Below are positions 11,796-16,151 of a stretch of DNA of 64,000 nt, piece after piece. Under the pieces are notes generated by a model. The model was not told the origin of the DNA and searched no databases. It saw only the letters and a program-made list of their open reading frames with translations. The translations under genes were made by a program, and so were the position numbers. The stretch is from Candidatus Colwellbacteria bacterium (GTDB lineage Bacteria; Patescibacteriota; Minisyncoccia; UBA6257; Colwellbacteraceae), in NCBI GenBank assembly GCA_028710275.1, contig JAQTUL010000001.1, positions 73,031 to 137,030 on the forward strand. Reading direction: 5' to 3'. The stretch's first letter is position 1; each line of letters begins with the position of its first letter.

Positions 11796-14700
11796 TTATA
11801 CTTTCGGGATAAATACTCCAGTATCTCCGATTTCACCTTTTCCTGTAGCAGCCTTAGTTTTCGCAGTTACTCTTCCTTCGAGAGCAGCAATAAGATCATC
11901 CTTGAGATACTGACCGGCCCAAAATAATCCCTTCTCGTTCAGAAGCTCTCTGAGTTTTTTCACTGTTAACTTGGAGAGATCCTCCTTTGGTTTCTCTTTT
12001 TCAAATGTGTATCTACCCTTCTCATCGACCGGAAATTCTGTATCTCTGAACACAACCTTAACCTTATTATATTTGATTGTATCCATCATATCGTGTTCAG
12101 ATTTAGAGATATATCCTTTATCACGAACAAGAGACATATACGATTCCTTATCACCGTCTTTATACACCATATTCTTTTTAAGAAGTTTAGTCTTAATACT
12201 ATCAGAGATCTCATCAAATTTGCTGTCATCCATTTCTAGACGTTTAGAGAGAAATTCAACGAGATCGTCTACATCACTGTCGCTCAAGATAACCTTTCTC
12301 TTCTTGTGATGAGCCAACGCCTTATCGATAATAACTGTCCATTCGTCTAGAGAGTACTCATCCTTGTCGAGTGAGTCTCTGAGTTCATGAAAGAATTCAT
12401 CTTCGTCGTCATCATCACTCTTCGCGTCATTGTCACTAGAATCCCAATCACTCGAATCGTCACTAGAATCCCAATCACTCGAATCGTCACTCTTCTCCCA
12501 ATCCGAGCCACTTGATTCTTTATCTGATTTGTCGCTCTTGGTGGGGAGTGCCCATGAAGCTGCCACCAACAAAACTTTGAGACCCTTATTCTTATCCGCA
12601 AAGTCTTGAACCATCTTTTCATAGACGTTCCATTCACCTTTCGCGAGTCCACAGCCGATGTTATAAGGGAATGCTATTGAACTATCTGAAGGAATCTTCT
12701 TCGCGATAGTCTCCAATCCCTTCTTGAACGCTGCTATTCTCTTCTCAGGAGTATCGGTTGGGTATCTAGCTTCACCAGGGTAATGTTGGCCAACCAGGTT
12801 GATAATCTTTCCTCGAATAAAGACATCTCCGAGTTTGCGCTTAGTTCCATCAGAATAGATGTCAGCCTCAGGAAACTTCTTGAAGATAGTCTCGGCGAGA
12901 CCTTTTGCCTTGTCGGTAACAGCATTACACTGGTGAACAATGTAGTGGGTCTTGACATAGGAGAGAAGATCGCCATCGACTGTCTTGATTTTGTTCTCAG
13001 CCGGTTCCTCTTCATCGTCTTCAACACCATCATCTGATTCACCCTTTTTCATCAGAGATTTTAGATCATTCACTAAATCGGCCTTCTTCTTTCCAACTTT
13101 CGTATACCCTTTAGTATTGAATAGAGAATTGAAGAACCCTATCAGACTTTTCAGTTCAGTGACTGTGTACTTGCTGATATCTTCGGATGAGAGAAGATCC
13201 AGAATCTCTTTCTTCACTGACGGAAAATCTGAAGGGCTACCCTCTACTTTTAAGTAAACTTCATACGCGCGGGTGGATTTAACTTTGGATTTACTCTTAC
13301 TTCCCTCCGTAAGAGCAACACCCTTTGCGCTCTCTGTCATCTTCTTATAGTCATCCATCGTTCTCTTCACACCTTTGTACTCATCACGAAGTTTCATATA
13401 AGTGACACCCAACATATTCTTTCCCTTACAATCCTTTCCGATACCCCAATAGAGATCGGTAGGACTTGCCTCTCTGATGATACACGTTCCTGTAGAGAGA
13501 AGGGTCTTCTTTACTTGTGGATGCTGTTCTAGTTTAGCTTTGACCGCCTTGTACATCACAGAATCCTTAACCTTCTCCCAATCCTTTCTCATAGAGACAC
13601 CTCGTTCTTTACTCTCATCGATGATATCCTTCAGAGGAGTTTTATCGGCTGGGCTCAGAAAAGTTCCGGTACCAAAGCGACCAGTCACCTTTTGATTTCC
13701 GAGCATTTTCGATTTGTTTGCTGTACTCGCTGAACGAATCTTCTCCTGATACCACGCGATATCTTCGTCACTGCTCGGCGAGAACTTCTCCGCGTGATAA
13801 TAATGTTCCGTAGTCGGCCATACGACACCATCGATCTTTACCGGAGTATCCGCGTAGTTAGAGAAAATCCTGTACTCGTTATCGATACTATCGTAGAAGT
13901 CACACACTGTCACTTCACTAGACTCCTCTTCTTCCTCATCCACATGTTCATCTTCATCCTTATCCTTCACTGAATTGAAGAAAGAATTCAGTTCTTCATC
14001 GCCTTCAATAGCCTTTGAGATGAATTCTGATGTGATTTTCACTTTCTTCTTATCTCTCGCGAGATTTCCTGACAACTCGAGAATTTCAGCAAGGAGATAT
14101 TCGATTACAACATGACGAATGTACAATGATTCGTCTCTCGCAATATTCCTTCTCAATTCCGAAAGAGCATGCCTACCGAGATCTTCAGGGAGTATTTCTT
14201 CGATGTTCTTCTTCACAGTCTCTACTCGATCATCCTTCGGAGGATATTTCCCGAGATCAAACTTTGGGATTAGAGGAGTGAGAAGTTCCTTCACCTTGGA
14301 GATACCATCACTTGTAATACCCGAATCCGGATGTACCTGACCGAGTACTACCTTGATATAAATATCCGGTAGCGATTTGAACGGAGTATTCTTGATCGAA
14401 TTGAACTCTTTTGCCACTTTCATCATCTTATTCTGCTCTTTGCTTCGCTCAATCATATTATCATAATGAACTACCGTGTACTTTGGATCCGAGAAAATCT
14501 TCTGAAACTCCTGATCAATCTTCTTGTCACGAGTGAGAGTGAAGAAATCAATCTTGAAAATATAGTCGTTGAGCTTGTGTTTCAGATTTATTCTTGACAC
14601 TTCATCTCCTGCAGATTCTATCTTCTTCACAAGGGATTTGATCTCATCGTATTCAGTAGTTGATTTCTCCTCCTCTCCTTCGGAATCAGATTCAAATTCG

Positions 14701-16151
14701 ATCTCGACAATCTTTTTAGACATCTTCTTGGGTGGTTTTTTTTCCTCTTTATCTGGAGATATCATTTTTTTCGGACTGATCGATTGAAGCTGTGAGAAGA
14801 ATGTTACAAGAATCTCCTTATTCTTCTTCAGATACTTTATCCAGTCTGGAGTAGTATCAAGAGCCGAAAGAACGAGATAGTCTTTAGAATATCTATCATA
14901 AGTTAATTTTCCTATATTCTTCGCGAATGAGTTATCAACTGAAATACATGTAAGATAGAATGTCTTTACTCTCTCTTTTTTTTCAGGATCTTCCTCCATT
15001 CCAGATACAATAAATTCATTGCCACCTTTTACAATTCGATATACAAAAGGTGATAGTTTAAGAGATTTTATTCTCGATACGCGATAAAAGAATGTACAGT
15101 AGATAGTTAGCAGTTTCAATCCTACACCATGAATACACTCCAAGTGCGCATTATCTAGAGTAGTTCCCAGTTCTAACATCCCGACATGCATTCGCTCATA
15201 AAATACCTTAAATTTAGATTTGTGAATTTTGTTTCGCAATTCAATGAGCATTTTCTGTGCTTTTTGAAACAGTTCAGGGTCGTCTACAGCCCAGCTGGTT
15301 ATATTGTCATTCAGACAATGAAATCCTGTTTCCGCTACCATGTTTAGAATCGTAGAGGAATCGCTGGCTATACTCTCTAATATCTTCTCGTCACTCTTTC
15401 TCTCTATATCGACCATGGCCTTGTAGCTCTTTCGGATTGATTTATCTAGCCCCTCGTGATTGATGATACTCTCCTTCTCAATCTCATTCATCCATATAGG
15501 AGTGAGATTGGATGGATCCGATGGATTGATGTTTCTATCTTTCGACATGATCATTGTTTGAACTAGTTCATCGATATCATAACAATAACCATTTGATAAT
15601 CTAATATACTTAATATCATCGATATCATCAACATCGGTCATCGATATCGATGTCTCCCTGTTTTTACAACTTCGCACTTTCGGTTTAGATGGAAGATCGT
15701 CATCCTTGAATCCATATCTCTTTTTCATATTCTCACATATCATCTTCATGTTCGCGCTCTTCTTTCCGTCCTTTATACTAACACCACATTCTATGGCAAG
15801 ATCCACTAGATTTTTTCTTGTATATCCTCTTGGACATTCAGAATAGATTTTACACTTTTGGATAAGTTTGTTTTTAATCTTTGGTTCATCTTCGATTACC
15901 TCCTCTTCTGAATCGGTGTCTGACTCAATCTCAATACGGATCGGCTTCTTCACTTTCTTAACTTTGACTTTCTTCTTCTCTTTGAGTATCTCTTCTAACT
16001 TTGCGCAGATCTCTTTTTTATTCTTTTTGATACCGTACGTCTTTATTACCGATAGTACGTTTTTATCAGCGAGAAGCTCCTCTAATTTCCACGCTCCATT
16101 CTTAGTTGTATATCTTTCAAAACACATTCGATCACAGTACTTGAACGACAT
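11796..16151 (-). CDS. Giant multidomain protein with a NADAR (YbiA-like) domain, a macro domain (TARG1/OARD1-like), SAP-like DNA-binding motifs and acidic SDDSSDWD repeats
   Basis: NADAR: 'YRIFSNYADTPVKIDGVVWPTTEHYYHAEKF ... DLYWGIGKDCKGKNMLGVTYMKLR'. Macro: 'YIVHQCNAVTDKAKGLAETIFKKFP ... IAFPYNIGCGLAKG'. SAP-like C-terminus: 'LTVKKLRELLNEKGLFWAGQYLKDDLIAALEG'. Confidence 0.7.
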   Translation of the reverse strand: MSFKYCDRMCFERYTTKNGAWKLEELLADKNVLSVIKTYGIKKNKKEICAKLEEILKEKKKVKVKKVKKPIRIEIESDTDSEEEVIEDEPKIKNKLIQKCKIYSECPRGYTRKNLVDLAIECGVSIKDGKKSANMKMICENMKKRYGFKDDDLPSKPKVRSCKNRETSISMTDVDDIDDIKYIRLSNGYCYDIDELVQTMIMSKDRNINPSDPSNLTPIWMNEIEKESIINHEGLDKSIRKSYKAMVDIERKSDEKILESIASDSSTILNMVAETGFHCLNDNITSWAVDDPELFQKAQKMLIELRNKIHKSKFKVFYERMHVGMLELGTTLDNAHLECIHGVGLKLLTIYCTFFYRVSRIKSLKLSPFVYRIVKGGNEFIVSGMEEDPEKKERVKTFYLTCISVDNSFAKNIGKLTYDRYSKDYLVLSALDTTPDWIKYLKKNKEILVTFFSQLQSISPKKMISPDKEEKKPPKKMSKKIVEIEFESDSEGEEEKSTTEYDEIKSLVKKIESAGDEVSRINLKHKLNDYIFKIDFFTLTRDKKIDQEFQKIFSDPKYTVVHYDNMIERSKEQNKMMKVAKEFNSIKNTPFKSLPDIYIKVVLGQVHPDSGITSDGISKVKELLTPLIPKFDLGKYPPKDDRVETVKKNIEEILPEDLGRHALSELRRNIARDESLYIRHVVIEYLLAEILELSGNLARDKKKVKITSEFISKAIEGDEELNSFFNSVKDKDEDEHVDEEEEESSEVTVCDFYDSIDNEYRIFSNYADTPVKIDGVVWPTTEHYYHAEKFSPSSDEDIAWYQEKIRSASTANKSKMLGNQKVTGRFGTGTFLSPADKTPLKDIIDESKERGVSMRKDWEKVKDSVMYKAVKAKLEQHPQVKKTLLSTGTCIIREASPTDLYWGIGKDCKGKNMLGVTYMKLRDEYKGVKRTMDDYKKMTESAKGVALTEGSKSKSKVKSTRAYEVYLKVEGSPSDFPSVKKEILDLLSSEDISKYTVTELKSLIGFFNSLFNTKGYTKVGKKKADLVNDLKSLMKKGESDDGVEDDEEEPAENKIKTVDGDLLSYVKTHYIVHQCNAVTDKAKGLAETIFKKFPEADIYSDGTKRKLGDVFIRGKIINLVGQHYPGEARYPTDTPEKRIAAFKKGLETIAKKIPSDSSIAFPYNIGCGLAKGEWNVYEKMVQDFADKNKGLKVLLVAASWALPTKSDKSDKESSGSDWEKSDDSSDWDSSDDSSDWDSSDNDAKSDDDDEDEFFHELRDSLDKDEYSLDEWTVIIDKALAHHKKRKVILSDSDVDDLVEFLSKRLEMDDSKFDEISDSIKTKLLKKNMVYKDGDKESYMSLVRDKGYISKSEHDMMDTIKYNKVKVVFRDTEFPVDEKGRYTFEKEKPKEDLSKLTVKKLRELLNEKGLFWAGQYLKDDLIAALEGRVTAKTKAATGKGEIGDTGVFIPKV

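What the first reader, a model, noticed from the sequence alone, without database searches (positions are those of the whole stretch)
11796..16151. 1451-aa protein combining NADAR and macro domains with SAP DNA-binding motifs: a candidate ADP-ribosylation eraser
NADAR (YbiA-like; signature 'FSNY…W.T.EHYYHAEKF…DLYWGIG.D..G.N.LG') and a TARG1/OARD1-like macro domain ('HQCNAV…GLA…FKKFP…IAFP..GCGLAKG') sit in one polypeptide with SAP motifs. NADAR and macro domains are both established ADP-ribose-processing modules. NADARs reverse guanine ADP-ribosylation of DNA, and macro domains remove protein or DNA-linked ADP-ribose. A SAP-tethered double eraser in a virus suggests a counter-defence against host or competitor ADP-ribosyltransferases (PARP or DarT-like toxins). 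This architecture is unusual.
Basis: partly seen in the sequence, partly recalled or inferred. Interest (0 to 1): 0.7.

Follow-up and report, generated by a model that had tools for sequence, protein, structure and literature searches.

The report
Giant-virus histone-fused ADP-ribose double eraser
A giant-virus gene encodes one long protein that joins two different ADP-ribose-removing enzymes (NADAR and a macrodomain) to DNA-binding-like motifs and, unexpectedly, to a compact histone H2B-H2A unit, which suggests an enzyme parked on chromatin to strip ADP-ribose from DNA or proteins.

Summary
The 1451-aa ORF (11796-16151, minus strand) is real and lies on a giant-virus (Nucleocytoviricota) contig that NCBI files under a Candidatus Colwellbacteria MAG.

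**Confirmed**
- **NADAR:** Pfam E=7.6e-28, YbiA family. All catalytic positions are present (E782, K789, E894, D899, W902).
- **Macrodomain:** invisible to Pfam on the single sequence. A 26-member family profile matches BT1257, DarG, Poa1p, SCO6735 and TARG1 at 1e-15 to 1e-10. It is the SCO6735/BT1257 subtype, with catalytic Gln1122 and no TARG1 Lys/Asp dyad.
- **SAP-like motifs:** only marginally supported.

- Residues 588-733 form a compact H2B-H2A double histone fold (AlphaFold pLDDT 91; TM 0.7-0.8 to single-chain H2B-H2A).
- It lacks H2A alpha1/L1 and the docking segment and is net acidic, but keeps the acidic-patch residues.
- It behaves as a cassette: absent in one syntenic orthologue, single in two, duplicated in one. 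It is under purifying selection.

**Context and reading**
- Tandem NADAR-Macro proteins in viruses are already described. I found no report of a histone-eraser fusion.
- Most likely function (inferred): a chromatin- or DNA-tethered dual ADP-ribosylhydrolase.
- Only four NADAR-bearing relatives exist among 5.8 billion protein clusters.

The parts
11796..16151 (-). Whole ORF, 1451 aa (stop codon included)
   Evidence: An identical protein, P0001, is in NCBI. Orthologues share 48-83% identity. Purifying selection in all modules.
15972..16151 (-). Residues 1-60: conserved N-terminal motif (W-x-L-x-E-L-L ... K-K-x-K-x-E-I-C-x-K-L), SAP-like helix-extended-helix, basic (pI 9.3)
   Evidence: Conserved in P0001-P0005, P0150 and P0151. 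Only partial matches to the SAP profile. Charge.
15702..15854 (-). Residues 100-150: 'CPRGYT' SAP-like motif
   Evidence: hhalign against verified SAP domains of relatives: probability 84%, E=7.4e-6. Duplicated in P0005.
14766..15683 (-). Residues 157-462: family-defining core domain of unknown function (beta-hairpin plus helix, helical bundle, beta-sheet)
14391..14651 (-). Residues 501-587: leader of the histone cassette. The whole cassette spans about residues 496-742 and is flanked by acidic linkers.
   Evidence: Absent, together with the histone fold, from the syntenic orthologue P0003. Duplicated with it in P0004.
13953..14390 (-). Residues 588-733: compact H2B-H2A double histone fold (H2B alpha1, short alpha2, alpha3, alphaC; then H2A alpha2, alpha3, alphaC). 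No H2A alphaN/alpha1/L1 and no docking segment. Net charge -4.
   Evidence: PDB phmmer E about 1e-11 to single-chain H2B-H2A. tblastn with human H2A 5.7e-12 and H2B 1.9e-5. 773 homologues, the best being 200-260 aa doublets. Alignment A4. AlphaFold pLDDT 91.4, pTM 0.87. Foldseek TM 0.70-0.78. Charge. dN/dS 0.13-0.20.
13374..13907 (-). Residues 749-926: NADAR domain, YbiA family, with a ~30-residue insertion at about 812-847. Catalytic positions E782, K789, E894; ADP-ribose contacts W858, D899, W902.
   Evidence: Residue roles from PMC11543638.
13062..13202 (-). Residues 984-1030: SAP-like motif with an insertion, between NADAR and macro
   Evidence: hhalign against SAP: probability 72%, E=3.4e-5. 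The contiguous version in P0004 scores 7.3 bits, above all shuffles.
12561..12995 (-). Residues 1053-1197: macrodomain, ALC1-like class, SCO6735/BT1257 subtype. H1073, N1076, K1083 and catalytic Gln1122 are present. A1170 sits at the TARG1 Asp125 position.
   Evidence: Residue roles from PMC9411070.
12396..12560 (-). Residues 1198-1252: very acidic Ser/Asp/Trp-rich repeats (DSSDW), net charge -17, encoded partly by a perfect 27-bp tandem repeat at 12432-12491
   Evidence: Absent from all homologues.
11868..12395 (-). Residues 1253-1428: lineage-specific C-terminal region ending in the best SAP-like motif (1392-1422)
   Evidence: Pfam SAP E=0.2-0.28. Custom SAP profile 7.7 bits, above all 500 shuffles. 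No counterpart in orthologous loci.

Best explanation
This is a modular giant-virus protein whose enzymatic payload is two unrelated ADP-ribose-removing domains, held on chromatin or DNA by non-catalytic modules.

Shown here:
1. A YbiA-family NADAR domain with every catalytic and ADP-ribose-contacting residue intact.
2. An ALC1-like macrodomain of the SCO6735/BT1257 subtype, with the essential Gln.
3. A compact, acidic H2B-H2A double histone fold that keeps the nucleosome acidic-patch residues and the H2A L2 lysines. It lacks H2A alpha1/L1 and the docking segment.
4. Up to four weak SAP-like motifs, plus a conserved core domain that in relatives travels with genuine SAP domains.
5. Purifying selection on every module, and cassette-like gain and loss of the histone unit among syntenic orthologues.

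Inferred from the biochemistry of the closest characterised enzymes:
- NADAR cleaves base-linked ADP-ribose (guanine N2, possibly cytosine).
- The macrodomain cleaves thymidine-linked ADP-ribose on DNA and/or Glu/Asp-linked ADP-ribose on proteins.
- Together they would clear several chemically distinct ADP-ribose adducts.
- The SAP-like motifs would give DNA affinity.
- The histone pseudodimer, being acidic and incomplete, would more likely act as a histone mimic or docking unit than wrap DNA itself. Possible partners are nucleosome-like particles, histone chaperones or acidic-patch readers.
- The biological role would be to protect the viral genome or replication factory from ADP-ribosylation by host PARPs/ARTs or by competitors' toxins, or to erase host chromatin ADP-ribose signalling.
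For: Domain identities:
- NADAR.
- Macro.
- Histone fold.

Catalytic residues:
- NADAR E782/K789/E894/D899/W902 align to P. nicotianae E43/K50/E125/D130/W133.
- Macro Q1122 aligns to SCO6735 Gln85. Q85A is inactive, and SCO6735 removes T-linked DNA ADP-ribose and Glu-linked protein ADP-ribose.
- YbiA-family NADARs hydrolyse guanine-ADP-ribose in vitro.

Selection and evolution:
- dN/dS is 0.04-0.20 for all modules.
- The locus is syntenic in four related viruses, with the histone cassette present 0, 1, 1 or 2 times and the macro present or absent.
- Relatives of the core domain carry bona fide SAP domains.

Precedent:
- Viral tandem NADAR-Macro proteins and virion packaging of such enzymes are documented.
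Against: - No enzymatic or localisation data exist.
- No ADP-ribosyltransferase, PARP or sirtuin lies in the 64-kb window, so nothing points to a cognate writer.
- The NADAR passes NCBIfam's cutoff for the riboflavin-intermediate N-glycosidase equivalog domain. A small-molecule substrate therefore cannot be excluded.
- Iyer et al. argue that Macro/NADAR of DNA viruses mostly target soluble ADP-ribose derivatives.
- SAP motifs are sub-threshold in Pfam.
- The histone module is acidic and lacks two of the three canonical DNA-binding sites.
- Orthologue P0003 works without the histone unit and P0004 without the macro. Neither is therefore essential to the family.
- The macro 3D fold was not modelled.
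Confidence: 0.58

Rival explanations
1. Enzymatic histone variant. The H2B-H2A unit is built into viral (or host) nucleosome-like particles in place of an H2B-H2A doublet. The protein is then a structural chromatin component that carries its erasers as cargo, a convergent enzymatic counterpart of macroH2A, possibly packaged in the virion.
For: - High-confidence H2B-H2A pseudodimer fold.
- All H2A acidic-patch residues and the L2 lysines are kept.
- Stand-alone reduced doublets of the same subtype exist with long basic Ser/Arg/Lys tails (P0006, P0063).
- A shortened Melbournevirus H2B-H2A variant still forms nucleosomes (PMC12297534).
- ADP-ribose enzymes are often virion-packaged.
Against: - The module is net acidic (-4, against about +13 for canonical fold regions).
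- It lacks H2A alphaN/alpha1/L1 and the docking segment that holds H3-H4.
- H2B alpha2 is shortened.
- No H3/H4-type gene was found in the window or retrievable flanks.
- A syntenic orthologue lacks the module altogether.
Confidence: 0.17
2. Metabolite housekeeping. NADAR acts as a YbiA-type N-glycosidase on riboflavin-pathway intermediates or soluble ADP-ribose derivatives. The macrodomain acts as a Poa1p/OARD1-like ADP-ribose-1''-phosphate phosphatase or O-acetyl-ADP-ribose deacetylase. They would clear NAD-derived small molecules (RNA-repair by-products, immune signals) rather than macromolecular adducts.
For: - TIGR02464 equivalog-domain hit above the curated cutoff.
- The macro profile also matches yeast Poa1p at 6.6e-11 and O-acetyl-ADP-ribose deacetylase 1 at 3.5e-10.
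- Iyer et al. favour soluble substrates for DNA-virus Macro/NADAR.
- RNase III, RNase H, HD and Nudix genes lie nearby.
Against: - Fusion to a histone fold and SAP-like motifs makes little sense for soluble substrates.
- The macro has the SCO6735-type active site, which is characterised on DNA and protein substrates.
- All tested YbiA-family NADARs remove guanine-ADP-ribose.
- No riboflavin or NAD-salvage genes were found in the window.
Confidence: 0.15
3. Non-catalytic reader or scaffold. The domains bind ADP-ribose, as macroH2A1.1 does, and recruit or sequester host factors without hydrolysis. The histone unit would act as a decoy for histone-binding host proteins.
For: - The SOS histone domain shows that acidic double histone folds can be pure protein-interaction modules.
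- The window protein alone carries an acidic-aromatic DSSDW repeat tail. From general knowledge, this resembles histone-chaperone motifs.
Against: Every catalytic residue tested is conserved and invariant across the family. NADAR shows strong purifying selection, dN/dS 0.04-0.06.
Confidence: 0.06
4. Artefact: a chimeric assembly, or a bacterial gene as the NCBI label (Candidatus Colwellbacteria) implies.
For: NCBI names the identical protein as coming from a Colwellbacteria MAG.
Against: - The neighbours are hallmark giant-virus genes: D5 primase-helicase, Rpb1, poly(A) polymerase regulatory subunit/cap methyltransferase, EsV-1-7 repeats.
- The same architecture occurs in an independent JGI contig (P0002).
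- The locus is syntenic in three other assemblies.
- The GTDB scan finds only stand-alone bacterial NADARs, at about 38% identity.
Confidence: 0.02

Closest known systems
Viral tandem NADAR-Macro proteins (Iyer, Burroughs, Aravind et al. 2022, Viruses 14:1977)
   Same: NADAR and Macro sit in one viral polypeptide, which implies complementary specificities for different ADP-ribose linkages. NCLDVs are among the carriers.
   Different: No histone fold, SAP-like motifs or ~300-aa core domain is reported in those architectures. Here the two enzymes are separated by a SAP-like linker and preceded by an H2B-H2A cassette.
SCO6735 (Streptomyces coelicolor) and BT1257 macrodomains, ALC1-like class (PDB 5e3b, 2fg1)
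   Same: Best solved-structure matches of the macro family profile (8.5e-16 and 6.9e-11). Same Gln at the TARG1/DarG lysine position, same GCGLAxG loop, and H/N/K equivalents.
   Different: Those are stand-alone bacterial proteins of ~160-180 aa. SCO6735 Val25 is Gln1074 here. Activity is untested.
E. coli YbiA (2b3w) and Phytophthora nicotianae NADAR (8bau), YbiA family of the NADAR superfamily
   Same: Sequence E=3e-29 to YbiA. The Glu-type last-strand residue and all ADP-ribose contacts are conserved.
   Different: Carries a ~30-residue insertion (about 812-847). Embedded in a 1451-aa multidomain protein. Not next to DarT or YarT, so it is not an antitoxin in a toxin-antitoxin pair.
Marseilleviridae H2B-H2A histone doublets, including the Melbournevirus short variant (7n8n, 9cvt)
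   Same: Same order of folds (H2B then H2A) in one chain, giant-virus origin, and structural match TM 0.65-0.75.
   Different: The module here is shorter (146 aa), lacks H2A alpha1/L1 and the docking segment, is acidic, and is an internal cassette of an enzyme rather than a free histone. No H4-H3 partner was found.
macroH2A (animal histone variant: H2A fold plus macro domain)
   Same: A histone H2A-type fold and a macrodomain in one polypeptide, linking chromatin to ADP-ribose biology.
   Different: The fusion is independent. The macro here matches macroH2A1.1 only at E=0.71 but ALC1-like hydrolases at 1e-10 to 1e-15. macroH2A is non-catalytic, has a full H2A and has no NADAR.
Histone domain of Son of Sevenless (1q9c)
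   Same: An H2B-like plus H2A-like pseudodimer embedded in a multidomain non-histone protein, without the basic DNA-binding surface.
   Different: SOS is a cytosolic animal GEF. Sequence similarity to histones is much lower there than here, where identity to human H2A is 55% over alpha2-alpha3.

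Membership tests
NADAR superfamily, YbiA family (PF08719 / TIGR02464) | Profile HMM score above the curated threshold | tested here: met
   PF08719 98.2 bits against 35.1. TIGR02464 101.5 against 73.7.
NADAR superfamily, YbiA family (PF08719 / TIGR02464) | Catalytic Glu and Lys of the first helix region (P. nicotianae E43, K50) | tested here: met
   E782 and K789 in TTEHYYHAEKF align to YbiA SEHYFQAQKF.
NADAR superfamily, YbiA family (PF08719 / TIGR02464) | Family-defining Glu in the last strand (E125). 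It is Asp in DarT1-linked BC4488 NADARs and His in phage NADARs. | tested here: met
   E894 in IIREASPTDLYWGIG aligns to LYEASRHDAIWGIG of 8bau. D899 and W902 match D130 and W133.
NADAR superfamily, YbiA family (PF08719 / TIGR02464) | Hydrolysis of guanine-linked ADP-ribose (or of riboflavin intermediates) | not testable with these tools
   Needs a biochemical assay.
DarTG / YarT-YbiA toxin-antitoxin systems | Hydrolase encoded next to its cognate ADP-ribosyltransferase toxin | tested here: not met
   No ART domain in any ORF of the 64-kb window. Flanking genes are a cap methyltransferase and a C2H2-like ORF.
Macrodomain (PF01661), ALC1-like class | Pfam Macro HMM match of this protein | tested here: not met
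   No hit at E<=10 for the isolated module. However, 11 of 26 aligned family members hit PF01661, best 4e-13.
Macrodomain (PF01661), ALC1-like class | Significant similarity to solved macrodomains of this class | tested here: met
   Family profile: BT1257 8.5e-16, DarG 1.7e-13 and 4e-12, Poa1p 6.6e-11, SCO6735 6.9e-11, TARG1 3.5e-10. Single sequence: 6.6e-5.
TARG1/OARD1 subtype | Catalytic Lys84-Asp125 dyad | tested here: not met
   Gln1122 and Ala1170 occupy these positions. The Gln is invariant in 26 family members.
SCO6735/BT1257 subtype | Gln at the Lys84/Lys80 position (SCO6735 Gln85, essential), plus H24/N27/K34 equivalents and a GCGLAGG-type loop | tested here: met
   Q1122, H1073, N1076, K1083 and GCGLAKG at 1166-1172. 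V25 is Gln here.
Macrodomain (PF01661), ALC1-like class | Three-layer alpha/beta/alpha macro fold | not tested
Double histone fold / viral H2B-H2A doublet | H2B-like then H2A-like sequence in one chain | tested here: met
   PDB phmmer: 596-671 to H2B and 676-728 to H2A, E about 1e-11. tblastn with human H2A 5.7e-12 and H2B 1.9e-5. Best homologues are 200-260 aa doublets.
Double histone fold / viral H2B-H2A doublet | Intramolecular histone pseudodimer fold | tested here: met
   AlphaFold pLDDT 91.4, pTM 0.87. Foldseek probability 1.00 and TM 0.70-0.78 to single-chain H2B-H2A. Also matches the SOS histone domain and the Melbournevirus doublet.
Double histone fold / viral H2B-H2A doublet | Two complete histone folds (alpha1-L1-alpha2-L2-alpha3 each) plus the H2A docking segment | tested here: not met
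   About 42 residues spanning the H2B alphaC end and H2A alphaN/alpha1/L1 are replaced by about 4. H2B alpha2 is 18 residues long. The sequence ends at H2A alphaC.
Double histone fold / viral H2B-H2A doublet | Basic DNA-binding surface | tested here: inconclusive
   Net charge is -4, against about +13 for canonical fold regions. The H2A L2 K-K-x-K is retained (K702, K703, K705).
Double histone fold / viral H2B-H2A doublet | Partner H3/H4-type histones in the same genome; nucleosome-like particle formation | tested here: inconclusive
   None in the 64-kb window plus about 8 kb of flank. The contig is 152 kb and the rest was not retrievable. Particle formation is not testable here.
SAP domain (PF02037) | Pfam gathering threshold | tested here: not met
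   Best 11.3-11.7 bits against 23.9, E 0.2-0.3.
SAP domain (PF02037) | Similarity to verified SAP domains beyond chance | tested here: inconclusive
   C-terminal motif 7.7 bits, above all 500 shuffles. hhalign probability 72% and 84% for two family-aligned motifs. Relatives P0005, P0150 and P0151 carry true SAPs.
macroH2A | Complete H2A fused to a macroH2A-class, non-catalytic macrodomain | tested here: not met
   macroH2A1.1 matches only at E=0.71. The H2A part is incomplete. This is an analogy, not membership.
U-box / RING-like E3 (considered for the N-terminal core) | Profile or fold similarity to U-box domains | tested here: not met

The most novel reading that the evidence does not exclude
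The protein is a true enzymatic histone variant. Its compact H2B-H2A unit would slot into nucleosome-like particles on the viral genome, or into host nucleosomes. That would place a guanine/cytosine-specific and a thymine/protein-specific ADP-ribosylhydrolase directly on chromatin. It would be a convergent, catalytically active counterpart of macroH2A. It would also imply that ADP-ribosylation of DNA or histones is a significant antiviral pressure in the unknown protist host.
Probability: 0.15. Interest if true: 0.85.

Novelty: new variant of a known kind. Interest (0 to 1): 0.62.

Why it matters
Three fields meet in this protein.

- **Viral histones.** They have so far been discussed only as packaging proteins. 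This would be the first case I could find of a viral histone fold used as a module of an enzyme. It is also a natural parallel to macroH2A that arose independently.
- **DNA-base ADP-ribosylation.** It is well established in bacteria (DarT, ScARP, pierisin-like toxins) but barely explored in eukaryote-virus conflicts. A chromatin-tethered enzyme pairing a G-type and a T-type eraser predicts that such modification occurs on viral or host DNA in protists, and it provides reagents to look for it.
- **Domain evolution.** The cassette behaviour (0, 1 or 2 copies among syntenic orthologues) is a clean natural experiment on what the histone unit adds.

If the protein is merely a metabolite-cleaning enzyme with decorative domains, the interest is modest.

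Tried and rejected
3. **Partner histones.** tblastn with human H3 and H4 against the window and all fetched loci found nothing. Walking beyond the window gave only about 8 kb on one side.
4. **A cognate ADP-ribosyltransferase.** None was found in 41 window ORFs scanned with Pfam.
5. **More fusion examples.** IMG/VR viral contigs gave none. GTDB genomes gave only stand-alone bacterial NADARs.
6. **Independent assemblies.** The exact full-length protein is not on record in the contig index. Independent support therefore comes from the orthologues instead.
7. **TARG1-type catalysis.** Rejected because the Lys/Asp dyad is absent.
8. **Bacterial origin** (the NCBI Colwellbacteria label). Rejected on gene content and synteny.
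9. **Tail and leader.** Pfam on the C-terminal tail found only the sub-threshold SAP; the leader was only covered in the full-length scan, which found nothing there.

Full report
**1. The observation**

The start (MSFKY...) is conserved in all relatives. All quoted sequence strings are present.

The window is not bacterial. Its neighbours include:
- a D5-type primase-helicase with an intein;
- an Rpb1 split by an intein and mobile elements;
- a fused cap methyltransferase/poly(A) polymerase regulatory subunit;
- EsV-1-7 cysteine-repeat proteins, a RING protein, RNase III and RNase H.

NCBI nevertheless holds the identical protein as 'NADAR domain-containing protein [Candidatus Colwellbacteria bacterium]', on a 152-kb MAG contig. 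That is a mis-binned giant-virus (Nucleocytoviricota) contig.

**2. NADAR**

- Pfam PF08719: E=7.6e-28, 98 bits against a threshold of 35, residues 752-924.
- NCBIfam TIGR02464: above its curated cutoff.
- E. coli YbiA structure 2b3w: E=3e-29.

Schuller et al. 2023 (PMC11543638) define the important residues in the P. nicotianae enzyme. Alignments to 2b3w and 8bau place them in the window protein as follows:

| P. nicotianae residue | Role | Window protein |
|---|---|---|
| E43, K50 | catalytic | E782, K789 |
| E125 | last-strand residue defining the YbiA family | E894 |
| W89, D130, W133 | ADP-ribose contacts | W858, D899, W902 |

It is therefore a Glu-type (YbiA-family) NADAR, not the Asp-type DarT1-linked antitoxin. 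About 30 extra residues sit at about 812-847, between the two conserved halves. YbiA-family members tested so far remove ADP-ribose from guanine in DNA (PMC11125620). E. coli YbiA was first characterised on riboflavin intermediates.

**3. Macrodomain**

Pfam finds nothing in this protein, even for the excised module. The domain is real, on four lines of evidence:
- The single module hits BT1257 (2fg1, 6.6e-5) and SCO6735 (5e3b, 2.7e-3) in the PDB.
- A search with the three family copies found 24 stand-alone proteins of 150-190 aa. Some are annotated macro or O-acetyl-ADP-ribose deacetylase, and one comes from a viral metagenome.
- The 26-sequence profile hits BT1257 (8.5e-16), the DarG macrodomains 5m3i and 5m31 (1.7e-13 and 4e-12), yeast Poa1p (6.6e-11), SCO6735 (6.9e-11) and human TARG1/OARD1 (3.5e-10).
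- 11 of the 26 members hit Pfam Macro on their own.

The active site, however, is not TARG1's:
- Lys84 is replaced by an invariant Gln (Q1122, in VGQHYPG).
- Asp125 is replaced by Ala (A1170, in GCGLAKG).

This is precisely the SCO6735/BT1257 arrangement. In SCO6735, Gln85 is essential. The enzyme removes thymidine-linked ADP-ribose from DNA very efficiently, and also removes Glu-linked ADP-ribose from proteins (PMC9411070). The equivalents of SCO6735 H24, N27 and K34 are present (H1073, N1076, K1083). The 3D fold was not modelled.

**4.

A full-length search against PDB sequences unexpectedly matched single-chain H2B-H2A constructs at E about 1e-11. Residues 596-671 align to H2B and 676-728 to H2A. 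The Marseillevirus-family doublet 7n8n_B also matches.

Supporting evidence:
- tblastn with human histones hits only this ORF in the window: H2A 5.7e-12 (55% identity) and H2B 1.9e-5. H3 and H4 find nothing.
- A profile of the four family copies finds 773 homologues. The best are 200-260 aa proteins that cover about 90% of the module and carry Histone/H2A_C Pfam domains, so they are H2B-H2A doublets.
- AlphaFold2 on a 27-sequence alignment gives pLDDT 91.4 and pTM 0.87. The helices correspond to H2B alpha1, a shortened alpha2 (18 residues), alpha3 and alphaC, then H2A alpha2, alpha3 and alphaC, with the L1/L2 beta-bridge.
- Foldseek against the PDB returns single-chain H2B-H2A dimers (TM 0.70-0.78, probability 1.00), then the SOS histone domain, then the Melbournevirus doublet and its 'mini' variant.

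The alignment shows how the module differs from full doublets:
- It lacks the entire H2A alphaN/alpha1/L1 segment; about 42 residues are replaced by about 4.
- It lacks the H2A C-terminal docking segment.
- It shares these features with a subgroup of stand-alone reduced doublets (P0006, P0033, P0050, P0063, P0069, P0076, P0079, P0083, P0084, P0121). Some of these carry long Ser/Arg/Lys-rich tails.

What the module keeps:
- All canonical H2A acidic-patch residues: E684, E689, E692, D718, E719, E720.
- The H2B counterparts: D657, E665.
- The H2A L2 lysines: K702, K703, K705 (mapping from the alignment and textbook nucleosome numbering).

Its net charge is -4 (pI 5.5). The equivalent canonical fold regions total about +13. 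It therefore looks less like a DNA-wrapping unit and more like a histone-dimer mimic or docking module, as in SOS (PMC13088155).

**5. A modular family**

Only five relatives exist among 5.8 billion clusters.

| Protein | Length (aa) | Histone cassette | NADAR | Macro |
|---|---|---|---|---|
| Window protein (= P0001) | 1451 | 1 | yes | yes |
| P0002 | 1215 | 1 | yes | yes |
| P0003 | 983 | 0 | yes | yes |
| P0004 | 1357 | 2 | yes | no |
| P0005 | 1238 | 0 | no | no |

- P0004 is complete and internal to its contig.
- P0005 has five bona fide SAP domains (E=1.6e-29) plus the N-terminal core.
- The loci of P0003, P0004 and the window are syntenic: RING, RNase H, EsV-1-7, this gene, cap methyltransferase. 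These are orthologues in related viruses.
- The histone cassette (leader plus fold, residues about 496-742) sits exactly between two acidic linkers. P0003 reads ...SDSEGEEE|SSEVCDFYD....
- Every module is under purifying selection, with dN/dS 0.04-0.20. The histone fold gives 0.13 (P0001 against P0002) and 0.20 (the two P0004 copies). dS is near saturation, so the ratios are approximate.
- IMG/VR holds no relative. GTDB genomes hold only stand-alone bacterial NADARs at about 38% identity.

**6. The other parts**

N-terminal core (157-462):
- It defines an unnamed family with 171 representatives in 1.84 billion proteins.
- In close relatives it follows true SAP domains.
- My U-box hunch failed its tests.

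SAP motifs:
- All are below Pfam threshold in the window protein.
- The C-terminal motif (1392-1422) beats all 500 shuffles against a profile of verified family SAPs.
- Profile-profile comparison gives probability 84% for the CPRGYT motif (100-150) and 72% for the inter-domain motif (984-1030).

Tail:
- Residues 1198-1451 are unique to this virus.
- The tail contains DSSDW acidic-aromatic repeats, encoded partly by a perfect 27-bp tandem repeat.

**7. Mechanism**

Shown: two intact hydrolase active sites of different chemistry, a histone pseudodimer fold, weak SAP-like motifs, selection, and modularity.

Inferred:
- NADAR clears base-linked (G, possibly C) ADP-ribose.
- The macro clears T-linked DNA and/or acidic-residue protein ADP-ribose.
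- The non-catalytic modules concentrate the enzymes on DNA or chromatin.
- The purpose is protection of viral DNA, or manipulation of host ADP-ribose signalling.

Confidence is about 0.58. The main rivals are a true nucleosome-incorporated enzymatic histone variant (0.17) and soluble-metabolite housekeeping (0.15). The second is supported by the TIGR02464 equivalog hit, the Poa1p similarity, and Iyer et al.'s view of DNA-virus Macro/NADAR. No writer enzyme was found nearby.

**8. Comparison with what is known, and novelty**

- Tandem NADAR-Macro proteins in viruses are already described (PMC9503650). That part is a new member of a known kind.
[quoted passage not shown] 2022.
- None of the following mentions a histone fold joined to NADAR or to a macrodomain: that review, the Irwin and Richards survey, a 2024 metagenomic histone survey, and a 2026 review of double histone folds.
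- Full-text searches combining these terms returned nothing.
- macroH2A is the obvious analogue, but the fusion is independent: the macro here matches macroH2A1.1 only at E=0.71.

I rate it a new variant of a known kind, with interest 0.62.

Noticed in passing
window 1-64000 (whole contig): NCBI files the identical protein, and hence the 152-kb contig, under a Candidatus Colwellbacteria MAG. The gene content is unmistakably Nucleocytoviricota, so a giant-virus contig has been mis-binned into a CPR bacterial genome.
   Followed up: partly
window 29855-36394 (-): RNA polymerase Rpb1 is split into two ORFs (34562-36394 and 29855-32833). A GIY-YIG-like ORF (33116-33994) lies between them. The downstream half carries an intein with a LAGLIDADG domain. 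Several mobile elements sit in one essential gene.
   Followed up: no
window 52017-56492 (-): The D5-like primase-helicase (AEP_C962R + PriCT_2 + D5_N) is interrupted by an intein.
   Followed up: no
window 63062-63676 (-) and 526-1560 (+): A TnpB/Fanzor-like fragment (Cas12f1-like TNB domain, E=2e-8) lies near the window end. An HNH+NUMOD4 homing endonuclease lies near the start.
   Followed up: no
window 12432-12491: A perfect 27-bp tandem repeat (2.2 copies) encodes DSSDW acidic-aromatic repeats in a tail (residues 1198-1252, net charge -17) that only this virus has. From general knowledge, acidic-aromatic motifs of this kind resemble H2A-H2B-binding motifs of histone chaperones. This was not tested.
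   Followed up: partly
L024 5853-7262 (contig JAWVHG010009932.1 of GCA_040384025.1): The best stand-alone relative of the histone module (P0006, 44% identity) lies next to a second reduced H2B-H2A doublet gene. It carries a ~100-residue Ser/Arg/Lys-rich N-terminal tail. The pair is a tandem of 'mini' doublets of the same subtype.
   Followed up: partly
L001 about 6860-7430 (P0004 residues about 700-810): Between its two histone cassettes, P0004 has an extra beta-rich segment of about 110 residues with no counterpart in the window protein.
   Followed up: no
window 46723-48210 (-), 59808-60698 (-), 58580-59743 (-): AP endonuclease family 2, a NUDIX hydrolase and a Tubby-like protein are encoded in the same window. 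The first two could relate to DNA repair or to ADP-ribose and cap metabolism.
   Followed up: no
window 17392-18972 (-) and 37607-39232 (-): Two large proteins are built from nine EsV-1-7 cysteine-rich repeats each (E=5e-89 and 3e-107). One sits just upstream of the studied gene in all syntenic loci.
   Followed up: no
window 14766-15683 (-), residues 157-462: The core domain belongs to an unnamed family of 171 representatives. Its signature is C-x-N...G-Y-C-Y-D-I-D-E-L...N-x-D-P...W...H-P-G-L-D. It is combined elsewhere with SAP, ankyrin or fn2 domains, and no structural homologue was found.
   Followed up: partly
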